Assembly (NCBI GenBank): GCA_044376595.1 | Contig: JBILKS010000001.1 | Span: forward strand, 1 to 35,453 | Direction of reading: 5' to 3' | DNA from: Ilumatobacteraceae bacterium | GTDB taxonomy: Bacteria > Actinomycetota > Acidimicrobiia > Acidimicrobiales > Ilumatobacteraceae | DNA: 35,453 nt | Part shown: one piece after another, positions 3,777 through 23,175 of the stretch | Numbering within the stretch: the stretch's first letter is position 1 | How the letters are laid out: every line of letters begins with the position of its first letter | Translations under genes and position numbers: made by a program | The notes under the pieces: generated by a model | Databases searched by the model: none | Seen by the model: only the letters and a program-made list of their open reading frames with translations | What the model was told of the DNA's origin: nothing

Positions 3777-4565
3777 ATGCCAAAGGCAGCATCGAAGCGC
3801 GTATCGAAGAAGTTGTCCGGAGCCAAGACACCTCCCGGAAGCACGACACAGAAGAAAACACAGACCAAGACACAGACCAAGACACAGACGAAGCCGCGCA
3901 AGAAGTCGTCTCCTGGCCGTACCTCCAGGAACGTCGTCAATATCGACGGTCGTGATCGGCGTCCTTGGGCACTCGCCAGCAAGGAACGGCTCCTCGAAGC
4001 CGCAACCGAAGAAATTGCTGCAGTTGGATTCGAACGGGCGCGCCTCGCAGAAATCGCCCAACGTGCCGACATGACCCCCGGGTCGGTGTACACATGGTTC
4101 GCCAACAAAGAAGAGCTCTTCCGGGCGGCCCTTGAATCCGCCTTGGCCGCTCAGTTGCACAGCAACATCACGTTTCTCGAAAGCGCAAACCTCGACTCGT
4201 CGGCATGGATGATGAAGCTTGCGCTGACCGTTCCGCGCAATGCGGGCGATTCGGGGCCCACTTCCGCACAGCAACTCTTGGTCGAGGCGTACTACGCGTC
4301 ATGGCGTGATCCATCTGCACGGGAAATGCTCGAACCGCGCATCCACGAGCACTATGCGATGTACCGCAAGATCGTCGCAGACGCCCAAGCCGAATCCTCC
4401 ATAGACAAGGATCTCGACACGCATCTTCTTGCAACTCTGCTTCTCGCAATACCGCTCGGAATGGCATTGGCCAACATGGCTGGCCTTGACCGTCCCGACG
4501 ACGCAGCGTGGATCGAAGTGGCGGGCCGCTTCGACAAGGCAATGCGTCCCGTCAAGAAGCGTTGA
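3777..4565 (+). CDS. TetR/AcrR-family transcriptional regulator with a lysine-rich N-terminal extension
   Basis: Helix-turn-helix region [45 protein letters not shown] is the classic TetR N-domain. It is preceded by about 60 basic residues including [16 protein letters not shown]. The start at ATG 3777 (GGAG about 12 nt upstream) is preferred over 3717. Confidence 0.8.
3846..3893. repeat. Four tandem 12-bp units encoding (TQ-K/T-K) repeats inside the TetR N-terminal tail
   Basis: Units are acacagaagaaa / acacagaccaag / acacagaccaag / acacagacgaag. Confidence 0.85.
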
Positions 4566-5604
4566 CGGCGTCGACCTTCCAGGTCAGGACGTCGAACGAA
4601 CCCAAGCCATCGGGGTCGACCAGCGCTTCGGCTTCACTCACGCGGGATCGCATTTTCATGGCCGCCACATCGGGTCGTGCAGCAGCAGCCTCCCAAGCCC
4701 GCTTGCCTTCCTCGACGAGTTCGTCGATACCCCACAGTTGGAGAAACTGCCGCTGGGTGCGGACGTTGTGAGGTTCCCTCACCACCGCAAGTTGATCGAT
4801 CATCACCTGCGTCGTGATGTCTTGTGCTCCGGGATTCGCCAAGTAATGGCCGCCGCGTTCGTGACCGACATAGGTACGCAGCCACTGGCGCCACGGATGT
4901 GCAGCCGCCATCGCCGTGAGCGGCCAGCAGTAATCGATAGCCACCACGTAGCCCCGTTCGAGAGTGTCGAGGGCAGTGGACAACCACTCTTGTGCCCCCC
5001 TCTGCAGGGGAAGACGGGACCCGTGTTGTGCCGTGGTCGGAAAGAACGACGGCAGCGAGTCCGACGTGGAAGGTCGCAACACTTCGGTGCAACGGTCGTC
5101 TTCGGCAGTCACCCATGCTTCACGCCACCCATGATCGAAGACCATCAGGTCGAACACGAGATTGTCGAGCAGTTCATTGGCAAGCACGACGCCGGTGAAC
5201 CGACCATCTGGCATCTCGGCAAGCGATTCGACCCACTCGGGGTGTTTGGCTCGTTGGGCTGCTGAAATCTCCACCGCGACATATCGCCACGAAGTTGCAC
5301 AGCGGGGCTGCGCTGCCGCGATCGTTCTGGCCAAGGTTCCGGGCCCTGCACCTGCTTCGATCACCGTGAAGTCGGCGGGTTGGCCGAGTTCGTCCCACCA
5401 CGCATCGAGTGCACGTGCCACGACTGCACCGAACAAGGGGCCCACCTCCGGAGAGGTGAGAAAGTCTCCACGACGCCCCGCCGAGCCGTGCGATGCATAG
5501 AAGCCGTTTTCTCCGTAGAGCGCGAGCTCCATGAAGCGGCGAAAGGGAACACTTCCACCTTCGGCACGAATGGCCGCGAGGATGTGATCAGCCGCCGACG
5601 GCAC
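4552..5604 (-). CDS. SAM-dependent methyltransferase, MidA / NDUFAF7 family (DUF185)
   Basis: Family hallmarks: ILAAIRAEGGSVPFRRFMELALYGENGFYAS...GRRGDFLTSPEVGPLFG and the SAM-binding motif VIEAGAGPGTLA. There is no in-frame ATG upstream of FMELAL. A GTG at 5604 gives a typical 24-residue lead-in and overlaps the nuoN stop (5588..5590) by 17 nt. The 3' end overlaps the convergent TetR gene by 14 nt. Confidence 0.8.
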   Translation of the reverse strand: MPSAADHILAAIRAEGGSVPFRRFMELALYGENGFYASHGSAGRRGDFLTSPEVGPLFGAVVARALDAWWDELGQPADFTVIEAGAGPGTLARTIAAAQPRCATSWRYVAVEISAAQRAKHPEWVESLAEMPDGRFTGVVLANELLDNLVFDLMVFDHGWREAWVTAEDDRCTEVLRPSTSDSLPSFFPTTAQHGSRLPLQRGAQEWLSTALDTLERGYVVAIDYCWPLTAMAAAHPWRQWLRTYVGHERGGHYLANPGAQDITTQVMIDQLAVVREPHNVRTQRQFLQLWGIDELVEEGKRAWEAAAARPDVAAMKMRSRVSEAEALVDPDGLGSFDVLTWKVDAVNAS

Positions 5605-7114
5605 CGGAAATGGCGGTGCTCGCGAAAGTGGCGAGATCACCGAAATGCAATGCCACACCCGGCAGCACGCCAAGCGCCAACGTGGCGAGGCCGGTAATGC
5701 CGAGCGCCAACACCAATGGTGCGGGTGTGTTGATCGGAGCGGTGTCGCCGTCGGGCACCGGACGCATCCAGATTTCACGCATGACGTTGCCGTAGTAACC
5801 GAATGCGATCACCGAGTTCACGGCACCCACCACCGCAATGGCGTATCCCCAGCCGGTACCGGCATCGAGCACTGCCTGGAATGCGGCAAACTTGCCGATC
5901 CAACCACCAAGCGGAGGAATACCAGCGAGCGAACCGAGGAAGATGGTCATCAGCGTGGCCAGGCCCGGCGCATAACTGAAGAGTCCGCCGAAAGAACTGA
6001 TTTCACCGCTGCGGGTCTTGCGGGACACCGAAAGGATGATGGCGAACATGCCCAGGCTGGTTGCCGCGTACACGATGAGATACGTGACGACCGACCGCAA
6101 CACCGCGGCCGATGCATCACCCTCTGCCGCAACGGCAAGCGGCATCAGAATGAAGCCGCCCTGACTGATCGAGGAGTAGGCCAACATGCGAACGATGTTC
6201 GTTTGGCGCAGAGCAACCACATTTCCCACCGTCATGGTGAGAACGGCGAGTACCCAGATGAGCGGCTGCCACACGTCGGAAGCCGAAGGCACTGCCACGT
6301 ACAACACCGTGACCAACGCAACGAAACCGGCGGCCTTCGATGCCACCGAAAGGAATGCGGTGACGGGAGTGGGAGCACCCTGATAGGTGTCGGGTGCCCA
6401 GGTGTGGAAGGGAACCGCCGACACCTTGAACGCAAAACCCACGACGATGAACACCACGGCGAGGATGCGCACAGCAGTGAGGTCACCGGTGATCTCGCTG
6501 GCAAGGCCCGAGAGAAGGGTGGAGTTGGTCACGCCGTACAACAACGACATGCCGTAGAGCATCACTGCCGATGCAAAAACGCCGAGAAGGAAGTACTTCA
6601 CACCGGCTTCGTTGCTCTTCAGGTCTCGCTTACGCCAGGCGGCAAGCATGTAGGCCGGAATCGAGAGGAACTCGAGGGCAACGAACATGGAGATCAGATC
6701 GCGACTCGATGTCATCATCACCATGCCGGTGATGCTGGTGAGCATGAGCACCCAGTACTCACCCTTGTAGTAGTCGCCCTCTTCGATATAGGTGGTGGAC
6801 AAGAGAACCACGACGTAACCGACGAGAAGGAAGAGACCCTTCATGATCAAACTGAAGTCGTCGATGACGTAACGGCCGTCGAACATCGACCGCACACCGG
6901 CATCATCGAGTGCGAGTGTCAGAACCGGAATGAATGCTCCGAGCAGGGTGAAGCCTGTGAGGCTGGCCAAGAGCCACTTGCTGCGCTCGGCCAGGAAGAG
7001 ATCCGCCAACAAGACGACACAGATGCCGCATGCAAGAACGATCTCCGGGGCGAGGGCGTGGTAGTCGACAATCGGCGCCACCCAGTCGGCCGCTGCAAGA
7101 AGCGAGGACAACAC
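5588..7114 (-). CDS. nuoN: NADH-quinone oxidoreductase subunit N (cluster 1, the 11-gene cluster)
   Basis: 508-aa polytopic antiporter-like protein with VPFHTWAPDTYQGAPTPVTAF. GTG start at 7114 with GGAGG 8 nt upstream. Paralog of 18163..19674. Confidence 0.9.
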   Translation of the reverse strand: MLSSLLAAADWVAPIVDYHALAPEIVLACGICVVLLADLFLAERSKWLLASLTGFTLLGAFIPVLTLALDDAGVRSMFDGRYVIDDFSLIMKGLFLLVGYVVVLLSTTYIEEGDYYKGEYWVLMLTSITGMVMMTSSRDLISMFVALEFLSIPAYMLAAWRKRDLKSNEAGVKYFLLGVFASAVMLYGMSLLYGVTNSTLLSGLASEITGDLTAVRILAVVFIVVGFAFKVSAVPFHTWAPDTYQGAPTPVTAFLSVASKAAGFVALVTVLYVAVPSASDVWQPLIWVLAVLTMTVGNVVALRQTNIVRMLAYSSISQGGFILMPLAVAAEGDASAAVLRSVVTYLIVYAATSLGMFAIILSVSRKTRSGEISSFGGLFSYAPGLATLMTIFLGSLAGIPPLGGWIGKFAAFQAVLDAGTGWGYAIAVVGAVNSVIAFGYYGNVMREIWMRPVPDGDTAPINTPAPLVLALGITGLATLALGVLPGVALHFGDLATFASTAISGAVGG

Positions 7115-7117
7115 GGA

Positions 7118-8713
7118 TCAGCCTCCGATGTTCGTGAGAATCGAGGCAACAGCCGGGTCGATGACCTTGAACAACAAGTTCGGCACGACACCGAAAAGAA
7201 GAATCGCTGCCAAGAGCGGTGTCCAGGCAATCCACTCGAACATCGTGACGTCGTGGATCTCTTCAGTGTCGTGGCCGTGACCGTCACTGTGGCCGTGATC
7301 ATGGCCGTGATCATGGCCGGCACCATGGCCGGCAGCGTGGCCGTCGTTCTTCGGCTCACCGAACGCCGTGCGCTGATAGAGCCACAAGAGATAGGCGGCG
7401 GCAAGCACGGTTCCCATGGCTGCGATCACCATGTACACACGGAAGAGCTCCTCAGAGAGGCCATCGGCCGGGTTGTAGGCCGAAAGGATTGCGGGGAACT
7501 CACCCCAGAACCCGGCTAGTCCGGGCAGACCGAGCGATGCCATGGCACAAAAGCCGAGGATCCAACCCATCTTGGGGATCTGCTTCAACATGCCACTGAG
7601 CTTGGCGATCTCCAAGGTGTGGTAGCGCTCTTTCACGCTTCCGGCAATGAAGAACAACATGCCGGTGATCAGACCGTGAGCAACCATGCCGAACACTGCT
7701 GCGTTGATGCCGAAGGACGTGAGGGTGGAGATTCCCAACATCACAAAGCCCATGTGGGCTACCGATGAAAAAGCGATGAGTCGCTTCATGTCGGTCTGAG
7801 CGAGACAGCCGAGCGCACCGTAAATGATGCCAATGACTGCCAGCAGTCCGATCCACGGCGCCCATTCGATGGCCGCATCGGGAAGAACAGGAATCGCAAT
7901 ACGAACGAACCCGTAGGTGCCCAACTTCAACAAGATGGCGGCGAGGATCACAGAGCCCTGCGTGGGCGCCTGGGTATGGGCGTCGGGCAGCCACGTGTGG
8001 AACGGGAACATCGGCACCTTCACGGCGAAACCGATGAACATGCCCGCAAAGATCCACACCTGGGTGTTCTTGGCAATGGCGCCACCGTTCTCCACCAGAT
8101 ACGGAATCGCAAAGCTCTCGGCACCGGTCTTGAAGAAGAGTGCGAGGAAGGCCACCAGCATGAGAGCTGAACCGAACATCGTGTAGAGGAAGAACTTGAG
8201 CGATGCGTACTGGCGGTTCTCGCCGCCCCACACGCCGATCATGAAGTACATCGGCAACAGCACCAACTCGAAGAACACGAAGAACAGCACCAGATCCTGG
8301 GCGATGAATGTTCCGGCCATACCGGTCTGCAACACGAGCATGAGGATGAAGAACGCCTTCGGATTGCCCGGCGACGGAACATGGTTCCAGCTGTAGATCA
8401 TCACGAGAACCGTGATGACCATCGAGAGGAAGTAGAGCGGCAAACTGATGCCGTCGATTCCGATGTAGTAGGTGCTCTTGATGACCGAGATCCAGTTGGT
8501 CTCCGCCACGAATTGCATGTCTCCAGCACGGTCGTAGTTGAACTGTGTCAGCGTGTACACGCCGACACCGAGTGTTGCCACGGCGGTGATCAGTGCCACT
8601 GCCTTGTTCAACTGCTCTTCCGCTTTGGGGATGAACAGCATCACCAGCACACCGGCTAGCGGTAGGAAGGTGCCGACGCTGAGCACCCAGTTGGCGTCAC
8701 GGAGTTGTTCCAT
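7118..8713 (-). CDS. nuoM: NADH-quinone oxidoreductase subunit M (cluster 1), with a His-rich loop insert
   Basis: 531 aa with FPFHTWLPDAHTQAPTQGSVILA and LKRLIAFSSVAHMGF signatures. GAGGAG SD upstream of the ATG at 8713. Confidence 0.9.
   Translation of the reverse strand: MEQLRDANWVLSVGTFLPLAGVLVMLFIPKAEEQLNKAVALITAVATLGVGVYTLTQFNYDRAGDMQFVAETNWISVIKSTYYIGIDGISLPLYFLSMVITVLVMIYSWNHVPSPGNPKAFFILMLVLQTGMAGTFIAQDLVLFFVFFELVLLPMYFMIGVWGGENRQYASLKFFLYTMFGSALMLVAFLALFFKTGAESFAIPYLVENGGAIAKNTQVWIFAGMFIGFAVKVPMFPFHTWLPDAHTQAPTQGSVILAAILLKLGTYGFVRIAIPVLPDAAIEWAPWIGLLAVIGIIYGALGCLAQTDMKRLIAFSSVAHMGFVMLGISTLTSFGINAAVFGMVAHGLITGMLFFIAGSVKERYHTLEIAKLSGMLKQIPKMGWILGFCAMASLGLPGLAGFWGEFPAILSAYNPADGLSEELFRVYMVIAAMGTVLAAAYLLWLYQRTAFGEPKNDGHAAGHGAGHDHGHDHGHSDGHGHDTEEIHDVTMFEWIAWTPLLAAILLFGVVPNLLFKVIDPAVASILTNIGG
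7250..7348 (-). repeat. Low-complexity coding repeat encoding NDGHAAGHGAGHDHGHDHGHSDGHGHDTEEIHD in NuoM (cluster 1)
   Basis: Roughly 12-nt periodic gtggccgtga(c/t)c / atggccg... units on the plus strand. 10 His in 33 residues. Confidence 0.85.
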
Positions 8714-8726
8714 GCCGAATTGCTCC

Positions 8727-11060
8727 TCAGGTGTTGATGATGATTAGGACGAGACCTGCAACTGCCGCAGCAGCGAAGAGCAGAGCCCCGTATTGGTTGA
8801 CCTTGCCGGACTGCACCGGACGCAGAGCGCCTCCGGTGCCCCGGGCGAGAGTGCCCGATCCGTTGACCGCCCCGTCGACCACACGCTGGTCGACGTTGCG
8901 ATACACCCAGCCGGCCACCTTGCGGGTGACCAGGCCGAAACCGTTGACGATGCCGTCGAGAATGTTCTGGTTGATCCAGTAGGCCGCCTTGGCGATCGGG
9001 TGAGCGATGCCATGAACGATGACCTTTTCATAGAGAGCATCGAGGTAGTACTTGTTGACCAGGAAGGTGTAACCGCCGGCCAGCAATTTGTTCCGCTTGG
9101 TGAGGCCCACGAGCGCACCAGTCTTCTTGGTGTACAACTGAACGCTCACCAGCCAACTGATCACGATTCCGGCGAACACGATGGCCAACGACAGTGCCGC
9201 CTTCGACCACTTGAAGGGTGCGTGCTTCAACTGTGGTGCGTAACACACGCCGGCCTCGGGAGTTTTCTTGCCGCACGGCGAGTCGTACTTGCCCCCAGCC
9301 TGCAACGCCGCCGCAGGCACCACGTACTTCGCATGGCCGGCAGCTCCGTGGTCCATGTCTTCGACGACGACGCCCCGTGGTTCGACCCACTTCTTCATGT
9401 TCTCCCAACGCTCACCGAAAGGCGTTGCGTTGAGCAGACCAGCGCCGATGGCCAGCGTGGCGAGGATCACCAACGGCACCGTGATGAGCGCATTGCTCTC
9501 GTGCGGTCCGTGCGATGCGTGTGCGTCATGACCGTGGTCATCGTGACCGTGGTCATCATGGCCGTGCGCATCATCGCCGTGATCATCATGCTCTTCGTCG
9601 TGATGCTCACCGGCCGCGGCGCCGCGTGGGCTGCCGAAGAAAGTGAGGTACGTCGCGCGGGTCATGTACGCAGCAGTCATGAAGGCGCCGACCAGGCCCA
9701 CGATCATGAACGCGTTGTATCCGGCGTAGCCAACGTTGTCGATGATTTCGTCTTTCGAGAAGAAGCCCGACAGGGGGAACACACCGCACAGCGCAAGAGT
9801 CGAGATGACCCAAGTGACGAAAGTGATCGGCATGAACTTGCGCAGGCCGCCCATGTCCTTCTTCATGTCGAAAGAGTGATGTGAGCCGCTGTGGCTCACC
9901 GAACCGGCGCCGAGGAACAGGCATGCCTTGAAGAACGCGTGGGTAAAGATGTGGAAGACGGCTGGCAGCCACGCTCCGGCGCCCAGGCCCATCATCATGT
10001 AACCCAACTGGCTCACCGTTGAGTACGCGAGGACCTTCTTGATGTCGTTCTGAACGAAAGCCAGGGCCGCAGCAATCACGATAGTGATGCCGCCAATCAG
10101 CGTGATCATGTTCATGCCCGAGCCGTAGATGTTCATGCCCTCGAAAAACACGGGGTAGAGACGAGCCACCAGGAACACGCCTGCCACAACCATGGTGGAC
10201 GAGTGCAGAAGCGAACTGACAGGAGTGGGCCCGGCCATGGCATCGGGCAACCACGTGTGCAAGGGGAACTGGCCGCTCTTGCCGATGCAGGCGATGAACA
10301 ACGCCACTGCGCCCATCGTGATGGCCGTGCTGCTGGGGTTGCCGCTCAGCGCCCACGCCGACAGGCCCCGAATGCTGAAGCCGGACACACCCAGGTGCTC
10401 TTGCGTCCAGGAGTTGGCACTGAAGAACAGAATGCTGGTTCCGACCAAGAGGCCGATGTCGCCGGTACGCGTGGTGAAGAAGGCCTTGAGTGCGGCACGG
10501 CTGTTGGCGCCGTCTTCCCACCAGTGACCGATCAGCATGAACGAGCAGAGGCCCATGATTTCCCAGCCAAGAATCAACTGGATCATGTTGTCGGCGATGA
10601 CCATGTTCATCATGCCGGCCGAGAACAACGTGAGTGACGCGAAGAAGTGCGTGTAGCGACGGTCACCGCGCAGGTACTCGAGCGAATAAATCTGCACGAG
10701 CGACGAGATGAACGCAACCACCACGAGAACCGTCAAGGCAAGACCGTCGATGTGCTGGCCAATGGTGAAGGAGAAACCGCCGCTGTCCCACCATGTCCAC
10801 GACTTGATCACCGGGTCGATGAACTGCTCTTCACCGGCACCGTTGACCCGCTGGATCCACTGATAGCCGGCTCCGCCGGCCATCACCAGCGAGGCAAGCA
10901 TGGAGAGAACGCCGAACTCGCTTCCCTTCATGGGCATCTTCTTCCCGAAGAAGATGATGAGGGCGAATGCAACCGCCGGAACGATGGGAATGATCCAGAC
11001 GTGTTCCAGGAACCAGCCGGATTTCAGGGCCTCAGCGGCCACTTCAGATGCAGCAAACAT
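8727..11060 (-). CDS. nuoL: NADH-quinone oxidoreductase subunit L (cluster 1), unusually long at 777 aa
   Basis: FPLHTWLPDAMAGPTPVSSLLHSSTMVVAGVFL signature. C-terminal lateral-helix region ...NKYYLDALYEKV...VDGAVNG... and a final TM. Two insertions relative to the cluster-2 paralog (636 aa). Confidence 0.9.
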   Translation of the reverse strand: MFAASEVAAEALKSGWFLEHVWIIPIVPAVAFALIIFFGKKMPMKGSEFGVLSMLASLVMAGGAGYQWIQRVNGAGEEQFIDPVIKSWTWWDSGGFSFTIGQHIDGLALTVLVVVAFISSLVQIYSLEYLRGDRRYTHFFASLTLFSAGMMNMVIADNMIQLILGWEIMGLCSFMLIGHWWEDGANSRAALKAFFTTRTGDIGLLVGTSILFFSANSWTQEHLGVSGFSIRGLSAWALSGNPSSTAITMGAVALFIACIGKSGQFPLHTWLPDAMAGPTPVSSLLHSSTMVVAGVFLVARLYPVFFEGMNIYGSGMNMITLIGGITIVIAAALAFVQNDIKKVLAYSTVSQLGYMMMGLGAGAWLPAVFHIFTHAFFKACLFLGAGSVSHSGSHHSFDMKKDMGGLRKFMPITFVTWVISTLALCGVFPLSGFFSKDEIIDNVGYAGYNAFMIVGLVGAFMTAAYMTRATYLTFFGSPRGAAAGEHHDEEHDDHGDDAHGHDDHGHDDHGHDAHASHGPHESNALITVPLVILATLAIGAGLLNATPFGERWENMKKWVEPRGVVVEDMDHGAAGHAKYVVPAAALQAGGKYDSPCGKKTPEAGVCYAPQLKHAPFKWSKAALSLAIVFAGIVISWLVSVQLYTKKTGALVGLTKRNKLLAGGYTFLVNKYYLDALYEKVIVHGIAHPIAKAAYWINQNILDGIVNGFGLVTRKVAGWVYRNVDQRVVDGAVNGSGTLARGTGGALRPVQSGKVNQYGALLFAAAAVAGLVLIIINT
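9495..9611 (-). repeat. Low-complexity coding repeat encoding GEHHDEEHDDHGDDAHGHDDHGHDDHGHDAHASHGPHES in NuoL (cluster 1)
   Basis: Repeated gtcatgaccgtg / gtcatcgtgaccgtg / gtcatcatggccgtg units on the plus strand. 13 His and 11 Asp in 39 residues. Confidence 0.85.
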
Positions 11061-11062
11061 CG

Positions 11063-11362
11063 TTAACCCTTCATCTCCGACAGTTCGTCAAGCGCAATCG
11101 AACGACGATTGCGGTAGACGAGGAGCACCAACGCCAGACCCACGCCCACTTCCGCAGCGGCCACGGCGATGATGTACAACGCAAAAACATGCCCATCGAC
11201 GCTGCCGTTGCGCAGCGCAAAAGCGAGAAGGTTGATGTTGACCGAGTTCAAGATGAGCTCGATCGACATGAGAACCATCACGGCGTTGCGACGGGCGATG
11301 ACTCCATAGACACCGATGCAGAACAACACGGCACCGAGGAGGAGGAACTGGTTCACCAACAT
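11063..11362 (-). CDS. nuoK: NADH-quinone oxidoreductase subunit K (cluster 1)
   Basis: 99 aa, 3 TM, with SIELILNSVNINLLAF and IAVAAAEVGVGLALV motifs. Confidence 0.9.
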   Translation of the reverse strand: MLVNQFLLLGAVLFCIGVYGVIARRNAVMVLMSIELILNSVNINLLAFALRNGSVDGHVFALYIIAVAAAEVGVGLALVLLVYRNRRSIALDELSEMKG

Positions 11363-11365
11363 GTC

Positions 11366-11860
11366 TCAGTCCTTCCTTGCCAGAACGATGGCTCCGATGA
11401 CGGCAACCAAGAGAACGAATGACAGTGCCCAGAACGGCAACAGGTACGGGCCGAAGATCTCGTCGGAAATCTGCTGGGTGTTCACGACGGCCGCATCGGT
11501 GGGCAGCTCTTCGTCACCAAAACCCGAGATCAAGGCAATGACCATGACGGTCAACAACAGGCCGGCGGCCGGAAGACCGAGGTACCACGTGGAGTTGTTC
11601 AGTTCCTTTTCTTGGCCCAACTGCGCGCGGGTGAGCATGGTTCCGAAGAGGAACAACACCATCACGGCTCCGACATAGACGAGGATCTGGGTGATCGCCA
11701 CGAACTCGGCGGCGAGGATGATGTACTGCGCCGCGGCGCCCGTGAGCACCAACACCAACCACAGTGCGGCGTGCACCACGTTCTTCACGGTGACCACGCG
11801 CACGGCACCAAAGACCATGATGAGAGCAACGATCCCGAAGGCGATGTTCTGGGCAACCAT
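11366..11860 (-). CDS. nuoJ: NADH-quinone oxidoreductase subunit J (cluster 1)
   Basis: 164 aa from the ATG at 11860 ([23 protein letters not shown]...). ILVYVGAVMVLFLF motif. The ATG shares one base with the nuoI TAA (TAATG). The upstream part of the 263-aa track ORF overlaps nuoI and is rejected. Confidence 0.85.
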   Translation of the reverse strand: MVAQNIAFGIVALIMVFGAVRVVTVKNVVHAALWLVLVLTGAAAQYIILAAEFVAITQILVYVGAVMVLFLFGTMLTRAQLGQEKELNNSTWYLGLPAAGLLLTVMVIALISGFGDEELPTDAAVVNTQQISDEIFGPYLLPFWALSFVLLVAVIGAIVLARKD

Positions 11861-12351
11861 TACTTCTTGCCCTTCTTCTCTGCACCGGCTTCGAGCTCGG
11901 GGGCTTCGGGCACCGTCTCCATCCACTCGCCCAACTTGGCTTTGTCGTGAAGAAGATCGGCAATGCGCGGTTCGGAGTATTCGTATTCGGGGCTCCAGAA
12001 CAGCGCGTCGAACGGGCACACTTCGACGCAGATTCCGCAATACATGCAGAGTGCGTAGTCGATGTCGAATCGATCGAGTTTGTTGACTTGGCGCGGCTTG
12101 CCTCCGGCGCGGCGGGGCGGTGCCAGTTCCTTGTGTCCCTCGATGTAGATGCACCAATCAGGACACGAACGCGCACAGAGCATGCACGACGTGCAGTTTC
12201 CCTCGTGGAGAGCGATGACACCGCGCGCACGAATCGGCGGTGCTTCTTTTTCGTGGGGGTATTGAACGGTGTTGGCACCCTTTGTGATGGTTTCCACCAT
12301 CGTGTTGAGGGTGACACCGAGACCCTTGAAGAGACCGGGAACCTTCGCCAT
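11860..12351 (-). CDS. nuoI: NADH-quinone oxidoreductase subunit I (cluster 1), 2x[4Fe-4S] ferredoxin-type
   Basis: From the ATG at 12351 ([15 protein letters not shown]...). Contains [12 protein letters not shown] and [16 protein letters not shown] overlap with the nuoH stop. Confidence 0.9.
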
Positions 12352-13403
12352 CAGAACGCCACCTTCAGAACAGCCGTCACCATGATGTTGACGAGCGAGA
12401 CGGGGATCAGGAACTTCCACGCGAAGCGCTGGAGTTGGTCTTCACGGAAACGGGGGAAGCTGAAACGCACCCACATGCTGAGGAACACCAGCAACATCAT
12501 CTTCGTGAACATGATCAGCGGGCCGACCACATTCATCCAGTTGTCGATGTCGCCGATGGAGTCCCATCCGAACCATGCAAACGGAACTCCCCAACCGCCC
12601 AGGAACAACACCGATGCGATGAGAGCGAAAACTCCGGCCGTGGCAAACTCGGCGATGAAGAAGATGAGGAATCGGAAACCCGAGTACTCGGTCATGTAGC
12701 CCGACACCAGTTCCGATTCCGCGATGGGCATGTCGAACGGTGTCTGGGTGAGTTCGGCCTGTACCGCGATCATGAAGACCGCGAAACCAACGAACTGAGT
12801 GAGGATGTAGGGATTGCCCAGACCGTTCCAGCCGAACATCTCGCCGGCATTCTGCGCAACGACAATCTGCTGGAGGTTCATGGTTCCGGCCTGGATCACC
12901 ACGCCGACAACTGCAAGAACCATGGGCAACTCGTAGGCGATCAGCTGACCGGCTGCGCGCAAACCACCGAGCAACGAGTACTTGTTGGCACTGGCCCAAC
13001 CCGCAATCAAGATGCCGAGCACCGAGACCGACGAGACTGCCAACGCATAGAACACACCGGCCTCGAAGTCGGTGAACCACGCGTCGGGCCCGAAGGGCAC
13101 GACCGCCACCAGGAGGAACGTGCTGGTGAGAACGACAAGTGGTGCGATCTTGAAGATGAACTTGTCGGCACGCTCCGGGTAGAGGTCTTCTTTCTGAAGC
13201 CACTTGCCGACTTCGGCAAACAACTGCATCGATCCGTATGGGCCGGCTTCCATCGGGCCGAGGCGACTCTGCATGAACGACATCATCTTGAAGAGGAAGA
13301 CGTACACGATGGTTCCCGCGGGCAGGAGAACGGCAACGATGCCACCCAGCACGCGGAAAAGTGACTGAGCCCAATAGGGCATGCTTGCGAGTAACGCGAT
13401 CAT
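12351..13403 (-). CDS. nuoH: NADH-quinone oxidoreductase subunit H (cluster 1)
   Basis: 350 aa polytopic with [45 protein letters not shown] and RFREDQL motifs. ATGA overlap with the nuoD stop. Confidence 0.9.
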
Positions 13404-14602
13404 CAGCGGTCAATGTCTCCGAGAATGAAGTACAGCGAAGCCAGAATGGTGATGATGTCGGGCACGTACACGCCCTTCAGCAACCACGGCACGATGGAAA
13501 TGTTGTTGAAACTGGCCGAACGGATCTTGACGCGGAAGGGGCCGAGATCGCCCTTCGAGACCACGTAGTAACCCATCTCGCCGAGAGGATTTTCTGTTGC
13601 CACCCAGGCTTCGCCCTCGGGCACCTTGATGATGCGCGGCACCTTGGTCATGACAGGCCCCGACGGAATCGAGTCGAGAAGTCGCTCAACGATGTACGTG
13701 GACTCGCGAGTCTCCTGGAGACGCACCCAACAACGCGCATACGAGTCGCCGTCGAGGTGCGTCCACACCTTCCAGTCGACCTTGTCCCATGCCATCGGCA
13801 GTTTTTGATCGCGACGGAGATCCCAGTCGACGCCGCTGGCACGCAGGTTGGCTCCGGACATTCCGTACTGCAGCGCAATGTCGCGAGGGATCACACCGAT
13901 ACCGCGTGTTCGTGACTCGAAGATCTCGTTGCCGAACAACAGTCCTTCGATTTCGTCGCAGAACTTGCGCATCTTCTTCATCACGGCGCGCGTCTCGTCG
14001 ATCCAACCGGCGGGCAGATCGTCCTTCAGTCCGCCAATGCGGTCGAAGTTCGGGTGGAAGCGACCACCCGTGGCGCTTTCGATGAGGTTGAGAACGTATT
14101 CGCGATCGCGGAATGCGAAGAAGACCGGTGTGACTGCTCCCAGCTGCACGCCGAGGTCACCGAGGAACAACGACACGTTTGCGATGCGCGAAAGCTCGAA
14201 GAGGATGGTGCGAATCCACTGCGCACGGGGCGGGGCTTCGATCTCCATCAGTTGCTCTGCGGCAAGGATGAAGGGAACCTCGTTGGCGAAGCTTCCCAGC
14301 CAGTCGATGCGGTTGACCAAGGCCGTCACCTGCGGGAAAGTGCGCACTTCCGTGAGCTTTTCGTATCCACGGTGCATGTAACCGGCCGAAGGCTCGGCCC
14401 AGATCACTTGCTCGCCGTCGAGACGCGCAATGATCCGCAGTGTGCCGTGCGTGGCCGGATGCTGCGGACCGATGTTGAGCGTCATTCCCTCGGTTTCGAG
14501 TTCCACGTTGACGCGGGCATCAGCGGCCTGCGATGCGATGTAGGCCAACTGTTGGCGATCACTCTGCGGGCTGTTCTGCCTGCCGCCGTCGAGCATTGTC
14601 AT
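13403..14602 (-). CDS. nuoD: NADH-quinone oxidoreductase subunit D (cluster 1), 49-kDa subunit homolog
   Basis: 399 aa with MTLNIGPQHPATHGTLRII, HRGYEKL and a C-terminal LGDIDR. No RxCGxC or DPCxxC Ni-Fe ligand motifs. It is followed directly by nuoH, so nuoE/F/G are absent. Confidence 0.9.
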   Translation of the reverse strand: MTMLDGGRQNSPQSDRQQLAYIASQAADARVNVELETEGMTLNIGPQHPATHGTLRIIARLDGEQVIWAEPSAGYMHRGYEKLTEVRTFPQVTALVNRIDWLGSFANEVPFILAAEQLMEIEAPPRAQWIRTILFELSRIANVSLFLGDLGVQLGAVTPVFFAFRDREYVLNLIESATGGRFHPNFDRIGGLKDDLPAGWIDETRAVMKKMRKFCDEIEGLLFGNEIFESRTRGIGVIPRDIALQYGMSGANLRASGVDWDLRRDQKLPMAWDKVDWKVWTHLDGDSYARCWVRLQETRESTYIVERLLDSIPSGPVMTKVPRIIKVPEGEAWVATENPLGEMGYYVVSKGDLGPFRVKIRSASFNNISIVPWLLKGVYVPDIITILASLYFILGDIDR

Positions 14603-15204
14603 TCTGATGCTCCTTCGCCCTCATCGTCGCCACCAGGCAACGGTTCTACATCGACGATGCCCGGCCATGGCTTGACCATGCGTGCGAGCAACGGGAAATC
14701 CTTTCGCAACGGGTAGCCCTCGAAGTCGGAGGGAAGATACATGTTGCGAAGATCGGGGTGGCCGGCGAAGGTGATGCCGAACATTTCGTGGGCCTCACGT
14801 TCGTGCCAGTTGGCTCCGGCAAAAACACCGGTCCACGAATCCACCGTCCAGGTGTCTTCGGGAACGTCGGCTTTCAAGGTGATTCCTTGGTGGGTGCGAT
14901 GGTTGACCAAACGGGCAAAAACCTGAACCCGAGTTGCACCGCCTGCGTAGCCCTGACGAATAGTCATGTCGATGGGGGCTTTTTCCACGGTGGGGTCTTC
15001 TTCGCCCTTCCCGTACGGAGAGGGCATCCAATCGATGGCCGAAAGGAACGAGAAATAGTCGAAGCCGAGTTTGTCGCGCAGCGCAACGGCGGCATCGCGC
15101 CAGGCATCGGTGCGAACACGCACCCACGGATCTTGGCCGGGCTTTTCGAAGGTCTCTTCGACGAGATCTCCGAGTACAGCGGTGATGTCAGCGAGCGACG
15201 ACAA
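14599..15204 (-). CDS. nuoC: NADH-quinone oxidoreductase subunit C (cluster 1); start codon uncertain
   Basis: [38 protein letters not shown] signature. No in-frame ATG in a plausible position. A TTG at 15204 (AAGGG 8 nt upstream) overlaps the nuoB 3' end by 17 nt. In-frame GTGs further upstream are alternatives. Confidence 0.75.
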
Positions 15205-15751
15205 CTGGTTCGCCCTTTCGCTCGGCTTGTTGTGCCGCGTCGGCACCTTGCGACATGGCGACGTAACCCTCACCGCGCCAACGTGCCCCCATGTCTTCGT
15301 TCTTGATGCGCTGTTGCAACAAGACGATGCCCTCAAGCAGAGCCTCGGGCCGAGGTGGGCACCCGGGCACGTACACATCCACGGGAATGATCTGGTCGAC
15401 ACCCTTGGTGACGGAGTAGCTGTCCCAATACGGACCGCCACAGTTTGCGCAGCTTCCCATGGAGATCACGTACTTCGGTTCGGGCATCTGCTCGTAGAGG
15501 CGCTTGATAGCAGGAGCCATCTTGTCTGTCACTGTTCCGGAAATGACGACGAGGTCAGCCTGACGGGGACTGGCCGGCAACGGAATCACGCCGAGGCGCA
15601 TCACGTCGTAGCGAGGAGAACCGAATGCCGCACCCATTTCGATGGCGCAACAGGCCAATCCCCACTGATACACCCACAAGCTGTACGAGCGTCCAAGATT
15701 GAAAAGTGAAGTCAGCGGCTTGGGCAACCGACCACGATCTACGAGTCCCAT
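15188..15751 (-). CDS. nuoB: NADH-quinone oxidoreductase subunit B (cluster 1), N2 cluster-binding
   Basis: 187 aa with [21 protein letters not shown] and [11 protein letters not shown]. It carries a hydrophilic C-terminal extension of about 35 aa. Confidence 0.9.
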
Positions 15752-15812
15752 AAATCTTTCTCTCTCGACCTTTTCTCTGCGTCTTCTCTACGACCCACAC
15801 GGATGTGCGGGG
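15752..15812 (-). other. Unusually long, purine-rich spacer between nuoA and nuoB (cluster 1)
   Basis: Minus-strand reading: gggtgtagccccgcacatccgtgtgggtcgtagagaagacgcagagaaaaggtcgagagagaaagattt, then ATG. Every other junction in both nuo clusters is at most 13 nt or overlapping. Confidence 0.5.
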
Positions 15813-16178
15813 CTACACCCAACGCAGGACGCGCTTGCGCCATGCATAGACAAGGCCGAGCAACAGCACGGCCACGAATATTCCCATTTCAACGAGACCA
15901 AAAGTCCCGTAACGCTCGAGCTGTGTGGCCCACGGGAAGAGGAACACCGCTTCGACATCGAACACCACGAACAACAGGGCAAACACGTAATAGCGAATCT
16001 GGCTCTGCGACCAGCCCTCGCCCACCGGATCCACGCCACTTTCGTAGGCCATCGACTTCTCGCGCGATGGCTTGACCGGACGCACGAGAGAGGCCACCCA
16101 CAAAAGGAGACCGGCGAGGAGTAATGCTGCGAGGCCGAACCAGACAACCGTCAGGTATGACCGTAAGAAGGGGGACAT
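15813..16178 (-). CDS. nuoA: NADH-quinone oxidoreductase subunit A (cluster 1)
   Basis: 121 aa from the ATG at 16178 (MSPFLRSYLTVVWFGLAALL...). YESGVDPVG...YYVFALLFVVFDVEAVFLFPWA motif. GAGGG SD 3 nt upstream. Confidence 0.85.
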   Translation of the reverse strand: MSPFLRSYLTVVWFGLAALLLAGLLLWVASLVRPVKPSREKSMAYESGVDPVGEGWSQSQIRYYVFALLFVVFDVEAVFLFPWATQLERYGTFGLVEMGIFVAVLLLGLVYAWRKRVLRWV

Positions 16179-16218: not shown

Positions 16219-16902
16219 TCAAGTCGCGTGTTCGAAGAACCAATCCACCAGCGTGGCTGCGTGCGCGGCCGATGTGTGGGCGCGCTTTTCAGTCTCGGCG
16301 CACAACTCCTGGGGCGAGATTCCGACCTTGTGAAGTTCGTCGGCACCCGGCCCCGACGACCAGCGTTCGATGATCTGTGGGGTCACTTCAGGATGGAACT
16401 GCACCCCGAAACTGCGACCAAGACGGAACACCTGGACCCCCACGGGACTTGTTGCCAAGATCTCGGCCTCTTCTGGGGGAAGGCAACGGTCGTAATGCCA
16501 CTGCAACCACACGGCATCGTCCACAGCAGGAAGTGTGACCTGCGTCACAGTCCAATCGATGGAAAACCACCCGATCTCTGGTTTTTCGGCCCTTTTCACC
16601 TCCCCGCCCAGCGCATGGGCGAGAATCTGACCGCCAAAACAGATGCCGAACACGGGGATCCCCGCCTGGTGGGCAGCCCGCAAAAGGGCGGCCTCGGCCT
16701 CCACCAGGTGTGCGATGTCGGGCCAATACACCGACCAATCCGATCCGAGAGGCACCACCACAGCAACATCGGAGCTGAGTTGTGGCCACTCGAGGGCGTC
16801 CTCGCGGGCCCATTGCTCGCAGACGAAGCCACGCTCGCGCAACAACCGCCCAACGACTCCCCCGTCGTTGTCACCCCGGTTGGCAATCAGCACTGCGCGC
16901 AC
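16219..16902 (-). CDS. Class I glutamine amidotransferase (GuaA-like GATase1 domain protein)
   Basis: Nucleophile elbow GICFGGQ and the His/Glu pair in VQFHPE. Start taken as the GTG at 16902 (VRAVLIANRG...). The track ORF uses a TTG at 16938, which would overlap the divergent ilvA start. The stop lies 40 nt upstream of nuoA (cluster 1). Confidence 0.75.
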   Translation of the reverse strand: MRAVLIANRGDNDGGVVGRLLRERGFVCEQWAREDALEWPQLSSDVAVVVPLGSDWSVYWPDIAHLVEAEAALLRAAHQAGIPVFGICFGGQILAHALGGEVKRAEKPEIGWFSIDWTVTQVTLPAVDDAVWLQWHYDRCLPPEEAEILATSPVGVQVFRLGRSFGVQFHPEVTPQIIERWSSGPGADELHKVGISPQELCAETEKRAHTSAAHAATLVDWFFEHAT

Positions 16903-23170: not shown

Positions 23171-23175
23171 TGCAG

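What the first reader, a model, noticed from the sequence alone, without database searches (positions are those of the whole stretch)
5588..16178. Second, 11-gene complex I cluster with no NADH-oxidising module, next to a complete 14-gene cluster
Cluster 1 reads nuoA-B-C-D-H-I-J-K-L-M-N. The nuoD stop overlaps the nuoH start (ATGA at 13403), so nuoE/F/G are truly absent rather than degraded. The complete nuoA-N cluster lies only two genes away (18163..33179). The paralogs are old: NuoK1 and NuoK2 match at less than about half of positions by eye, and junction architecture differs. Known 11-subunit complex I relatives (cyanobacterial NDH-1, archaeal Fpo/Fqo) take electrons from ferredoxin or F420H2 rather than NADH. 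The donor for this enzyme cannot be read from the window, because no FpoF/FrhB-like, flavodoxin or ferredoxin gene is in the cluster. In an actinobacterium-like genome an F420H2- or ferredoxin-driven proton pump would matter physiologically. Sharing NuoEFG in trans is the alternative.
Basis: partly seen in the sequence, partly recalled or inferred. Interest (0 to 1): 0.75.

Follow-up and report, generated by a model that had tools for sequence, protein, structure and literature searches.

The report
Second complex I lacking NADH module
An aquatic actinobacterium (Ilumatobacteraceae) carries, beside its normal 14-gene respiratory complex I, an intact 11-gene version with no NADH-binding part; this arrangement is already published for related bacteria, and its electron donor remains unknown.

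Summary
Window 5588-16178 (minus strand) encodes nuoA-B-C-D-H-I-J-K-L-M-N with no nuoE/F/G, and a complete nuoA-N cluster lies at 18163-33179. The paralogs are 29-47% identical.

It is not new. The same layout, an 11-gene nuo cluster followed by an NDUFAF7-like methyltransferase and sitting close to a 14-gene nuo cluster, is published for Ca. Actinomarinales (PMC7771536; bioRxiv 10.1101/2021.02.01.429150). Here it recurs in about 30 Acidimicrobiia genomes.

All Fe-S ligands and proton-pump residues are kept, so the enzyme looks functional. Nothing in the window or in related loci names the donor. There is no FpoF, ferredoxin or flavodoxin gene, and the subunits fail NCBIfam's Fpo and NdhH cut-offs. 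Ferredoxin-type input is the best guess. Borrowing NuoEFG from the neighbouring cluster is a live rival.

- A PF02636 methyltransferase gene (4552-5604) belongs to the operon. Its presumed target arginine exists in NuoD1 but not in NuoD2.
- The whole actinobacterial lineage has a remodelled quinone pocket: Tyr87 to Trp, Asp139 to Gln, Arg350 to Leu, Asp401 to Tyr, plus NuoH changes. This was partly noted in 2015 for Streptomyces.

Verdict: new member of a known kind, moderate-to-low interest.

The parts
15813..16178 (-). nuoA1 (121 aa from ATG 16178)
   Evidence: PF00507, E 1.6e-35. Start chosen. D74/E76 match E. coli D79/E81.
15188..15751 (-). nuoB1 (187 aa), carries cluster N2
   Evidence: PF01058. 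All four N2 Cys ligands are kept: C34, C35, C101, C131. Passes NCBIfam NF005012.
14599..15204 (-). nuoC1 (~201 aa; start uncertain, TTG 15204). Has a lineage-specific insertion and a C-terminal 'KPWPG..VDVE' tail.
   Evidence: PF00329. Start candidates. Insertion and tail seen in the alignment.
13403..14602 (-). nuoD1 (399 aa), the short-type 49-kDa subunit with a remodelled quinone pocket (W101, D149, Q153, L340, Y391). His52 and Arg78 are kept.
   Evidence: PF00346. Residue mapping to T. thermophilus Nqo4. The ~25-residue helix of 14-subunit NuoDs is absent. NCBIfam scores.
12351..13403 (-). nuoH1 (350 aa). E. coli E36/R37 are replaced by L/F, and E216 by I.
   Evidence: PF00146, E 7e-100. 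Residue comparisons.
11860..12351 (-). nuoI1 (163 aa), two 4Fe-4S motifs and a Lys-rich C-terminal tail
   Evidence: Fer4 families. [11 protein letters not shown] and [11 protein letters not shown] motifs. Tail.
11366..11860 (-). nuoJ1 (164 aa)
   Evidence: PF00499. Y62/G64 kept.
11063..11362 (-). nuoK1 (99 aa)
   Evidence: PF00420. E35/E71 kept. 40% identical to NuoK2.
8727..11060 (-). nuoL1 (777 aa). Extra-long because of a His/Asp-rich loop and a ~75-aa loop with two Cys, located before the lateral helix.
   Evidence: PF00361, PF00662, PF01010. E167/K261/K436/D437 kept. Orthologue lengths of 700-830 aa and the variable His-rich loop.
7118..8713 (-). nuoM1 (531 aa), single copy, with a His-rich loop near the C-terminus
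   Evidence: PF00361, PF01059. E149/K232/K263/E405 kept. His-rich loop.
5588..7114 (-). nuoN1 (508 aa)
   Evidence: PF00361. E148/K230/K260/K408 kept.
4552..5604 (-). NDUFAF7-type (PF02636) SAM-dependent methyltransferase, last gene of the operon (start GTG 5604 or ATG 5532)
   Evidence: PF02636, E 1e-29. Found directly after nuoN1 in most Acidimicrobiia loci. The same pairing is reported in bioRxiv 10.1101/2021.02.01.429150.
16219..18143 (.). Two intervening genes: a glutamine amidotransferase-like gene (16219-16938, minus) and a PALP/ACT threonine-dehydratase-like gene (16782-18143, plus)
   Evidence: Pfam and NCBIfam. Conserved upstream only in the closest relatives L001, L003 and L005.
18163..33179 (-). 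Complete 14-gene nuoA-N cluster (cluster 2), including nuoE, nuoF and nuoG
   Evidence: Pfam. The best PDB match of NuoD2 is M. smegmatis NuoD.

Best explanation
Cluster 1 encodes a complete, functional, stand-alone 11-subunit complex-I-type proton pump. It has a Q-module (NuoB, C, D, I) and a P-module (NuoA, H, J, K, L, M, N), plus a dedicated NDUFAF7-type arginine methyltransferase. It belongs to an actinobacteria-specific lineage.

Shown: all 11 genes are intact and tightly packed. The N2 ligands, both NuoI 4Fe-4S motifs and every checked Lys/Glu/Asp of the proton-translocation machinery are kept. The gene order is conserved in about 30 Acidimicrobiia genomes.

Inferred: with no NuoEFG of its own, the enzyme takes single electrons at the exposed outer 4Fe-4S cluster of NuoI from a soluble low-potential carrier. 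Reduced ferredoxin is the most likely carrier, by analogy with cyanobacterial NDH-1 and with FpoF-less Fpo. Electrons pass via N2 to the membrane quinone (menaquinone in actinobacteria). The quinone pocket has lost the canonical Tyr87/Asp139 proton-donor arrangement, and the reaction is coupled to proton pumping. The methyltransferase probably dimethylates NuoD1 Arg78 next to N2 during assembly.
For: - Gene content and order.
- Cofactor and pump residues kept.
- The 11-gene order plus PF02636 is conserved in about 30 Acidimicrobiia loci. No E/F/G homologue lies beside any of the 80 closest NuoD genes.
- NuoD1 is the short type that lacks the ~25-residue helix found in all five 14-subunit references. 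It shares this trait with the EFG-less clusters of Bacillales, Dehalococcoidia and Acidobacteria. It aligns end-to-end only to short-type models (NF008974, FpoD).
- NuoD1 belongs to a clade separate from NuoD2 and M. smegmatis NuoD.
- Arg78, the equivalent of the bovine NDUFS2 Arg85 that NDUFAF7 methylates (established knowledge), is present in NuoD1 and the whole clade. It is Thr in NuoD2, M. smegmatis and T. thermophilus.
- The literature on 11-subunit enzymes favours ferredoxin-type donors (PMC11238625; PMC3144371).
Against: - No ferredoxin, flavodoxin, oxoacid:ferredoxin oxidoreductase or other donor gene lies in the window, and none is conserved next to the cluster in relatives. The donor is pure inference.
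- The host is an aerobic-type heterotroph with a full NADH-dependent complex I next door.
- The conserved same-strand proximity to nuo14 (16 loci, gaps from 60 nt to 7 kb) fits module sharing equally well.
- The quinone pocket lacks Tyr87 and Asp139. In mutagenesis, changes at these positions cripple quinone reduction (PMC4758237), so even quinone reduction is not certain.
Confidence: 0.5

Rival explanations
1. Module sharing. Cluster 1 is an alternative Q/P-module isoform that docks the NuoEFG N-module made from cluster 2. It would then be a second NADH:quinone oxidoreductase with a different quinone pocket, for example one insensitive to natural Q-site inhibitors or tuned to another quinone.
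For: - nuoN of the 14-gene cluster lies upstream on the same strand in 16 loci. In 5 of them the gap is only 60-310 nt.
- The Streptomyces nuo2 operon lacks nuoC, nuoE, nuoF and nuoG, and its nuoD2 lies elsewhere. If functional, it must borrow at least NuoC from nuo1 (PMC8388888).
- S. fumaroxidans is cited as having one nuoEFG set for two sets of the other genes (PMC4453560).
- Y87W-type changes give inhibitor resistance in mutants (PMC4758237).
Against: - NuoD1 lacks the ~25-residue helix present in every 14-subunit NuoD examined.
- The NuoC C-terminus, which contacts NuoG in T. thermophilus (PMC3144371), is replaced by a clade-specific KPWPG tail.
- The nearest non-actinobacterial relatives are EFG-less clusters.
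- In the closest relatives (L001-L005) no nuo14 gene lies within ~8 kb upstream.
- No docking test could be run here.
Confidence: 0.25
2. F420H2 dehydrogenase. The enzyme works like archaeal Fpo/Fqo and takes hydride from F420H2 through an FpoF/FqoF-like subunit encoded elsewhere in the genome.
For: - Proposed for the Ca. Actinomarinales paralog on the basis of up to 35% identity to M. mazei Fpo (PMC7771536).
- F420 is widespread in actinobacteria, as stated in the same paper.
- NuoD1 aligns end-to-end with the FpoD model.
Against: - No FpoF/FrhB-like gene lies in the window or near the cluster in about 30 relatives.
- FpoD, FpoH, FpoI, FpoC and FpoL scores are far below the NCBIfam cut-offs: 324/600, 240/475, 47/180, 64/220 and 366/1050.
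- Fpo/Fqo are listed only for archaea (PMC8498797).
- FpoD keeps Tyr87 and lacks His38/Asp139 (PMC4758237), which is the opposite of NuoD1.
Confidence: 0.1
3. Different chemistry at the acceptor end. Because the quinone-protonating Tyr and the His-Asp pair are gone, the enzyme may not be a forward quinone reductase. It may run in reverse (quinol to a low-potential acceptor, driven by proton-motive force) or use another acceptor.
For: - Clade-wide Y87W, D139Q/E, T135D/E/S, R350L and D401Y/F changes in NuoD.
- E216I/V and loss of the ER motif in NuoH.
- In a larger protein set, 172 of 174 proteins that are at least 45% identical to NuoD1 have Trp at this position.
Against: - His38, the N2 ligands, the E-channel residues and the antiporter residues are all canonical.
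- Short-chain quinones are still reduced by Tyr87 mutants (PMC4758237).
- No alternative acceptor is suggested by any neighbouring gene.
Confidence: 0.12
4. Decaying or non-functional duplicate.
For: The subunits score below most curated NCBIfam equivalog cut-offs.
Against: - All 11 ORFs are intact with coupled start/stop overlaps.
- NuoD1 orthologues are 53-97% identical across a whole class.
- The catalytic residues are kept.
Confidence: 0.03

Closest known systems
Paralogous 11-gene nuo cluster of Ca. Actinomarinales (Acidimicrobiia), reported in PMC7771536 and bioRxiv 10.1101/2021.02.01.429150
   Same: - Gene order nuoABCDHIJKLMN, followed by an NDUFAF7/PF02636 gene.
- Lacks nuoEFG.
- Lies close to a full 14-gene nuo cluster.
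- Same class of bacteria.
- The NuoD of a Ca. Actinomarina genome (L023) is 53% identical and carries the same Trp.
   Different: - Here there is no heliorhodopsin or Fe(III) ABC transporter between the clusters. Instead there is an amidotransferase-like gene and a threonine-dehydratase-like gene.
- htpX and pspE do not follow the methyltransferase. A TetR gene and an acetyl-CoA synthetase gene follow it.
- NuoL is longer (777 aa against 674 aa).
Streptomyces nuo2 operon plus orphan nuoD2 (PMC8388888)
   Same: - NuoD2 falls in the same Trp-bearing actinobacterial clade (45-50% identity; 100/100 NJ support).
- It is also paired with a PF02636 methyltransferase gene.
   Different: In Streptomyces, nuoD2 is detached from the operon and nuoC is missing. 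Here all 11 genes are contiguous.
[quoted passage not shown] Desulfitobacterium hafniense, Bacillus cereus, Dehalococcoides; PMC11238625, PMC3144371)
   Same: - Same 11-gene order.
- Short-type NuoD without the 25-residue helix.
- No N-module, and an unknown donor thought to be ferredoxin.
   Different: - Only 41-43% NuoD identity.
- Those enzymes keep Tyr87, Thr135, Asp139, Arg/Lys350 and Asp401 in NuoD, and the ER and EAExE motifs in NuoH.
- They have no PF02636 gene in the loci seen.
- Their hosts usually lack a 14-subunit enzyme.
Cyanobacterial/plastid NDH-1 (ferredoxin:plastoquinone oxidoreductase; PDB 6hum and others)
   Same: - Eleven homologous core subunits and no NuoEFG.
- NdhH is the second-best PDB match of NuoD1.
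- It is a likely functional analogue (ferredoxin input).
   Different: - NdhH keeps Tyr87 and Asp139 and has the extra helix.
- The NdhH NCBIfam cut-off is not reached (338 against 583).
- No NdhS/V/O-type genes lie in the window.
Archaeal Fpo/Fqo F420H2 dehydrogenase
   Same: Homologous 11 core subunits and a short-type FpoD.
   Different: - No FpoF/FqoF.
- All Fpo NCBIfam cut-offs are missed by a wide margin.
- The pattern of pocket residues is different (PMC4758237).

Membership tests
Complex I superfamily, 11-subunit core (NuoABCDHIJKLMN) | All 11 core subunits encoded | tested here: met
   Pfam hits for each subunit.
Complex I superfamily, 11-subunit core (NuoABCDHIJKLMN) | Cluster N2 ligands in NuoB (CC...C...C) and two 4Fe-4S motifs in NuoI | tested here: met
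   C34, C35, C101 and C131 in NuoB1. Two CxxCxxCxxxC motifs in NuoI1.
Complex I superfamily, 11-subunit core (NuoABCDHIJKLMN) | Conserved Glu/Lys of the antiporter-like subunits, the NuoK Glu pair and the NuoA Asp/Glu | tested here: met
   All E. coli reference positions are conserved in cluster 1.
Complex I superfamily, 11-subunit core (NuoABCDHIJKLMN) | NuoD lacks the NiFe-hydrogenase Cys pairs | tested here: met
   The NuoD1 sequence has 'QHPATHG' at the N-terminal site and 'LGDIDR' at the C-terminus, with no Cys pair.
Canonical 14-subunit NADH:quinone oxidoreductase | nuoE, nuoF and nuoG between nuoD and nuoH (or elsewhere in the operon) | tested here: not met
   The nuoD1 stop overlaps the nuoH1 start. 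No E/F/G homologue lies in cluster 1 or in any related locus.
Canonical 14-subunit NADH:quinone oxidoreductase | Quinone head-group ligands Tyr87 and His38, with Asp139 (T. thermophilus Nqo4 numbering) | tested here: not met
   His is kept (H52), but Tyr87 is Trp101 and Asp139 is Gln153.
Canonical 14-subunit NADH:quinone oxidoreductase | NuoD groups with NADH-type NuoD of the same phylum | tested here: not met
   NuoD2 groups with M. smegmatis NuoD 99/100. NuoD1 sits in a separate clade 100/100. Deep nodes are unresolved.
Canonical 14-subunit NADH:quinone oxidoreductase | Physical association with an NuoEFG N-module (possibly supplied in trans) | not testable with these tools
   Needs co-purification or multimer modelling.
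Actinobacterial 11-gene nuo paralog (Ca. Actinomarinales type / Streptomyces nuo2 lineage) | Order A-B-C-D-H-I-J-K-L-M-N followed by a PF02636 methyltransferase gene | tested here: met
   The same order is seen in about 30 loci and is described.
Actinobacterial 11-gene nuo paralog (Ca. Actinomarinales type / Streptomyces nuo2 lineage) | Lies near a complete 14-gene nuo cluster on the same strand | tested here: met
   The gap is 2 kb here. 16 related loci show the same arrangement.
Actinobacterial 11-gene nuo paralog (Ca. Actinomarinales type / Streptomyces nuo2 lineage) | NuoD in the Trp-bearing actinobacterial clade | tested here: met
   100/100 NJ bootstrap. Trp is present in every member.
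Cyanobacterial/plastid NDH-1 | NdhH-type subunit (NCBIfam NF005649 cut-off 583) | tested here: not met
   Score 337.6.
Cyanobacterial/plastid NDH-1 | Ferredoxin-docking subunits NdhS, NdhV and NdhO | tested here: inconclusive
   None was found among the window ORFs scanned, and no conserved small neighbour was found. The rest of the genome was not seen.
Fpo/Fqo F420H2 dehydrogenase | FpoF/FqoF input subunit | tested here: inconclusive
   Absent from the window and from the flanks of about 30 related clusters. The whole genome is not available.
Fpo/Fqo F420H2 dehydrogenase | Subunits reach the NCBIfam Fpo model cut-offs | tested here: not met
   FpoD 324/600, FpoH 240/475, FpoI 47/180, FpoC 64/220, FpoL 366/1050.
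Complex I variants with a second NuoM and a lengthened NuoL lateral helix (recalled from memory: Chadwick et al. 2018) | A second nuoM gene in the cluster | tested here: not met
   There is a single nuoM1. By my own reading of the translation and the His-rich loop located, the extra NuoL1 length lies in loops before the lateral helix; this was not tested by structure prediction.

The most novel reading that the evidence does not exclude
The actinobacterial 11-subunit lineage may differ from textbook complex I at both ends. It has an unknown, non-NADH donor. It also has a quinone pocket that has lost the proton-donating Tyr87, the His38-Asp139 ion pair, Arg350 and Asp401, together with NuoH Glu216 and the ER motif.

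If these clade-wide changes are adaptive, the enzyme either reduces its acceptor by a different proton-delivery route or is an intrinsically Q-site-inhibitor-insensitive pump. The inhibitors in question are piericidin- and rotenone-type compounds. Such a pump would be kept by actinobacteria, a phylum that makes such inhibitors. The co-inherited NDUFAF7-type methyltransferase, acting on NuoD Arg78, would be part of this specialised Q-module.
Probability: 0.25. Interest if true: 0.65.

Novelty: new member of a known kind. Interest (0 to 1): 0.32.

Why it matters
[quoted passage not shown] Acidimicrobiia (acIV/Ilumatobacteraceae, Actinomarinales) are abundant in lakes and oceans. A second, differently fuelled proton pump would change how their energy budgets are modelled.

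This window adds another clean example but does not make the question more testable. The more useful lead is that the whole actinobacterial lineage combines three features:
- no N-module;
- a dedicated NDUFAF7-type methyltransferase;
- a consistently remodelled quinone pocket.

These are concrete handles for biochemistry in a culturable host (Streptomyces, Ilumatobacter or Aquihabitans): W-to-Y and Q-to-D back-mutations, inhibitor sensitivity and Arg methylation. The data also argue against an earlier reading that Tyr87-to-Trp is a rare trait of piericidin producers. It is the rule for this paralog.

Tried and rejected
- **Neighbour search for a donor.** I looked for a conserved redox partner next to the cluster by all-against-all clustering of flank ORFs from 30 Acidimicrobiia loci. 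Only the PF02636 gene is conserved class-wide. Acetyl-CoA synthetase and the amidotransferase/dehydratase pair are local (one search was polluted by shadow ORFs and was redone).
- **Motif scan.** A scan for ferredoxin-type Cys motifs in all six frames found only NuoI1 and NuoI2.
- **NuoD phylogeny.** The first attempt timed out. The NJ tree with 100 bootstraps resolves the actinobacterial clade and NuoD2+M. smegmatis. It does not resolve the deep order of the 11- and 14-subunit types, so no claim of an 'ancestral' or 'NdhH/Fpo-related' position is made.
- **Cluster naming.** Naming the 50%-identity representatives by cluster look-up gave almost no taxonomy.
- **Promoter/terminator scan** of 3500-18400 found fewer sites than in shuffles, so it is uninformative.
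- **Extra NuoM / longer lateral helix variant.** Rejected, because there is one nuoM. The extra NuoL length appears, on my own unverified reading of the translation, to lie in loops rather than in the lateral helix.
- **Pseudogene or relic.** Rejected on conservation.
- **Structure prediction was not used.** The tool returns no coordinates and no multimers, so it could test neither the pocket nor NuoEFG docking.
- **Two literature searches gave nothing usable.** These were for FpoI lysine-tail/ferredoxin docking and for F420 in Acidimicrobiia.

Full report
**1. What is in the window**

The window (about 60% G+C) carries two sets of complex I genes on the minus strand. Pfam confirms cluster 1 as nuoA-B-C-D-H-I-J-K-L-M-N. 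It confirms cluster 2 as a complete nuoA-N set with nuoE, nuoF and nuoG.

After checking start codons, cluster 1 runs from 16178 (nuoA1 ATG) to 5588 (nuoN1 stop). The nuoD1 stop codon TGA (13405-13403) shares one base with the nuoH1 ATG (13403-13401). The H/I and I/J junctions have the same 1-nt overlap. So there is no room for nuoEFG and no remnant of them.

Two genes separate the clusters. One is a glutamine amidotransferase-like gene (16219-16938, minus strand), which ends 40 nt before nuoA1. The other is a PALP/ACT threonine-dehydratase-like gene (16782-18143, plus strand). Paralogous subunits are 29-47% identical.

It is a PF02636 (NDUFAF7/MidA-type) SAM-dependent methyltransferase (4552-5604; E about 1e-29).

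**2. Whose genome, and is this known?**

NuoD1's best database hits are 97% identical proteins from Ilumatobacteraceae/Actinomycetota metagenome-assembled genomes. The host is therefore an Acidimicrobiia actinobacterium.

The literature already describes this arrangement in the same class:
- López-Pérez et al. 2020 report two nuo clusters in Ca. Actinomarinales. One is an 11-gene paralog lacking EFG, and they suggest it may use F420 (PMC7771536).
- Bulzu et al. 2021 describe the operon as an 11-subunit complex I followed by NDUFAF7, with the 14-subunit variant 'in close proximity' (bioRxiv 10.1101/2021.02.01.429150).
- Moparthi and Hägerhäll 2011 list actinobacteria among the phyla with 11-subunit complex I. 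They failed to find a universal partner protein (PMC3144371).
- Streptomyces has nuoA-N plus a nuo2 operon and a separate nuoD2 (PMC8388888).
- The donor of such enzymes is still called an open question in 2024, with ferredoxin favoured (PMC11238625).

**3. Distribution and context**

A scan of one genome per species returned the 80 closest NuoD loci. I annotated them by BLAST against the window's own proteins.
- About 30 Acidimicrobiia genomes (53-88% NuoD identity) have the same order A-B-C-D-H-I-J-K-L-M-N. Most have the PF02636 gene right after nuoN.
- In 16 loci the nuoN of a 14-gene cluster lies upstream on the same strand. The gaps range from 60 nt to 7 kb.
- The next relatives (45-50% identity) are the orphan nuoD2 genes of Streptomyces, Intrasporangium, Nocardioidaceae, Micromonospora and others. 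They have no other nuo gene within 10 kb, but very often have a PF02636 gene adjacent.
- Beyond that (41-43% identity) come the EFG-less 11-gene clusters of Bacillales, Dehalococcoidia, Acidobacteria and others.
- None of the 80 loci has a nuoE/F/G homologue beside the NuoD gene.
- Clustering of flank ORFs found no conserved ferredoxin, flavodoxin, FpoF-like or other redox gene.
- The window has no ferredoxin-type motif outside NuoI1 and NuoI2.

**4. Phylogenetic and family placement**

NuoD2's best solved relative is M. smegmatis NuoD. NuoD1's best are T. thermophilus Nqo4 and then cyanobacterial NdhH, with much lower scores.

In an NJ tree with 100 bootstraps, all actinobacterial NuoD1/NuoD2-orphan sequences form one clade (100/100). 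NuoD2 joins M. smegmatis NuoD (99/100). Deeper nodes are unresolved.

A clean structural marker helps. All five 14-subunit references (T. thermophilus, M. smegmatis, E. coli, mouse and the window's NuoD2) have a ~25-residue helix (T. thermophilus 315-336). This helix is absent from NuoD1, from all its actinobacterial relatives, and from all the other EFG-less clusters. NdhH does have residues there, so the marker is not a universal sign of a missing N-module.

NCBIfam tells the same story:
- NuoD1 aligns end-to-end only with short-type models (NF008974, FpoD).
- It passes only the generic NuoD model NF004739 (390 against a cut-off of 360).
- It fails FpoD (324 against 600) and NdhH (338 against 583).
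- NuoH1, NuoI1, NuoC1 and NuoL1 also miss the Fpo cut-offs by a wide margin.

So cluster 1 is not a recent truncated copy of cluster 2. It is also not a member of the Fpo or NDH-1 families. It is a member of a distinct actinobacterial lineage of 11-subunit enzymes.

**5. Is it functional?**

Using E. coli Nuo as a ruler (locus L081), cluster 1 keeps all of the following:
- the four N2 cysteines of NuoB;
- the key Glu/Lys/His/Asp residues of NuoL, NuoM and NuoN;
- the two Glu of NuoK;
- Tyr/Gly of NuoJ;
- Asp/Glu of NuoA.

NuoI1 has both 4Fe-4S motifs. With class-wide conservation, a decaying duplicate is excluded.

**6. The remodelled quinone pocket**

Mapping to T. thermophilus Nqo4 shows that NuoD1 keeps His38 (H52) and the N2-side Arg84. 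The changes in NuoD1 are:
- Trp101 in place of Tyr87, the quinone head-group ligand;
- Asp149 in place of Thr135;
- Gln153 in place of Asp139, the partner of His38;
- Leu340 in place of Arg350;
- Tyr391 in place of Asp401.

Trp replaces Tyr87 in every actinobacterial member: 27 Acidimicrobiia, 4 unclassified Actinomycetota and 31 orphan NuoD2. It does so in none of the 18 non-actinobacterial 11-gene clusters, nor in NuoD2, M. smegmatis, E. coli, mouse or NdhH. In a larger protein set, 172 of 174 proteins that are at least 45% identical to NuoD1 have Trp. Trp also occurs in 11 of 100 more distant representatives.

NuoH co-varies. The loop motif 'FDxPEAExE' is 'FDMP(I/V)AESE' in the whole clade. 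The 'ER(K/R)' motif after TM1 is 'FLFK' in the window's order and 'AE(L/M/H)K' in the others.

Degli Esposti 2015 saw Tyr87-to-Trp, a change at position 401 and NuoH E35/R36 changes in 'piericidin-producing Streptomyces'. He called them rare and linked them to self-resistance. He noted that the same mutation strongly lowers decyl-ubiquinone activity and gives inhibitor resistance (PMC4758237). My data show instead that these changes are the rule for this paralog across the phylum. What they mean functionally is untested.

**7. The methyltransferase link**

The arginine that NDUFAF7 dimethylates in mitochondrial NDUFS2 (bovine Arg85; established knowledge) aligns with NuoD1 Arg78 ('HRG'). All members of the clade have it. 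NuoD2, M. smegmatis NuoD and T. thermophilus Nqo4 have Thr ('HTG').

The PF02636 gene travels with this NuoD type even in Streptomyces, where nuoD2 has left the operon. This supports the inference, not yet a demonstration, that the methyltransferase serves cluster 1 and not cluster 2.

**8. Mechanism and rivals**

- **Best supported (confidence about 0.5):** a stand-alone 11-subunit pump. It is fed at NuoI's outer cluster by a soluble low-potential carrier, most likely ferredoxin. It delivers electrons to menaquinone through an altered pocket.
- **Main rival (about 0.25):** cluster 1 borrows NuoEFG from cluster 2. The conserved tandem layout and the Streptomyces case, where nuo2 lacks nuoC, argue for it. 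The short-type NuoD, the clade-specific NuoC C-terminus and the EFG-less nearest relatives argue against it.
- **F420H2 input (about 0.1):** this lacks any FpoF gene and fails the Fpo family cut-offs. Fpo/Fqo are known only from archaea (PMC8498797).
- **Different acceptor chemistry or reverse operation (about 0.12):** this cannot be excluded, given the pocket changes.

**9. Verdict**

[quoted passage not shown] The added value of this review is threefold: the methyltransferase-arginine link, the phylum-wide remodelled quinone pocket, and the short-NuoD marker. I score interest at about 0.3.

Noticed in passing
window 13403-14602 (-), NuoD1 residues W101, D149, Q153, L340, Y391; window 12351-13403 (-), NuoH1 residues 37-38 and 227: The quinone-pocket residues that are conserved in all other complex I (T. 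thermophilus Tyr87, Thr135, Asp139, Arg350, Asp401; E. coli NuoH E36/R37 and E216) are replaced. The replacement is the same across the whole actinobacterial clade.
   Followed up: yes
window 4552-5604 (-): A PF02636 (NDUFAF7-type) methyltransferase gene is the last gene of the 11-gene operon. Its presumed target arginine ('HRG', Arg78) is present in NuoD1 but is Thr in NuoD2.
   Followed up: partly
loci L029-L062 (e.g. L040 8942-12143, L056 8812-11104, L047 7585-11104): In Streptomyces, Intrasporangium, Nocardioidaceae, Micromonospora and others, an orphan Trp-type nuoD2 has no other nuo gene within 10 kb. It usually sits next to a PF02636 methyltransferase gene. The two appear to be inherited as a pair.
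   Followed up: partly
PMC4758237 compared with loci L001-L062: A 2015 paper reads Tyr87-to-Trp as a rare substitution tied to piericidin-producing Streptomyces. Here it is universal in this paralog, including in Acidimicrobiia. That paper probably compared the nuoD2 paralog.
   Followed up: partly
window 8727-11060 (-), NuoL1 residues ~505-650; window 7118-8713 (-), NuoM1 residues ~465-495: NuoL1 is 777 aa, against 636 aa for NuoL2. It has a His/Asp-rich low-complexity loop (EHHDEEHDDHGDDAHGHDDHGHDDHGHDAH) and a further ~75-aa loop with a Cys pair (CGKKTPEAGVC). NuoM1 has a similar His-rich loop. Long NuoL (700-830 aa) is typical of the Acidimicrobiia cluster, but the His-rich stretches vary between relatives.
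   Followed up: partly
window 14599-15204 (-), NuoC1; window 11860-12351 (-), NuoI1 C-terminus: NuoC of the clade has a variable insertion after 'LSAIDW' and a conserved C-terminal 'KPWPG.VDVE' motif with an acidic tail. NuoI1 and many Acidimicrobiales orthologues end in a short Lys-rich tail (…EKKGKK). Both are possible docking elements for a partner, but this was not tested.
   Followed up: partly
window 13401-13405, 12349-12353, 11858-11862: The stop and start codons of nuoD1/H1, nuoH1/I1 and nuoI1/J1 overlap by one base (TGATG, TGATG, TAATG). This suggests translational coupling.
   Followed up: yes
window 33184-35371 (-): Directly upstream of nuoA2 lie three genes. They are a Rieske protein fragment (35072-35371), a 353-aa membrane-anchored dihaem cytochrome c (CAGCH and CARCH motifs, 34008-35069), and a 274-aa membrane protein with no Pfam or NCBIfam match (33184-34008). 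Respiratory genes appear to be clustered together here.
   Followed up: no
window 16219-16938 (-): A class-I glutamine amidotransferase-like gene ends 40 nt before nuoA1 on the same strand and may be co-transcribed with it. It is conserved upstream only in the closest relatives L001, L003 and L005.
   Followed up: partly
proteins P0150, P0151, P0159, P0177, P0212, P0222, P0225, P0237, P0240, P0245, P0292: Eleven more distant NuoD representatives (34-41% identical to NuoD1, some of them NuoCD fusions) also carry Trp at the Tyr87 position. Others carry F, I, V or H. Loss of the 'essential' tyrosine has therefore happened in other uncharacterised lineages too.
   Followed up: no
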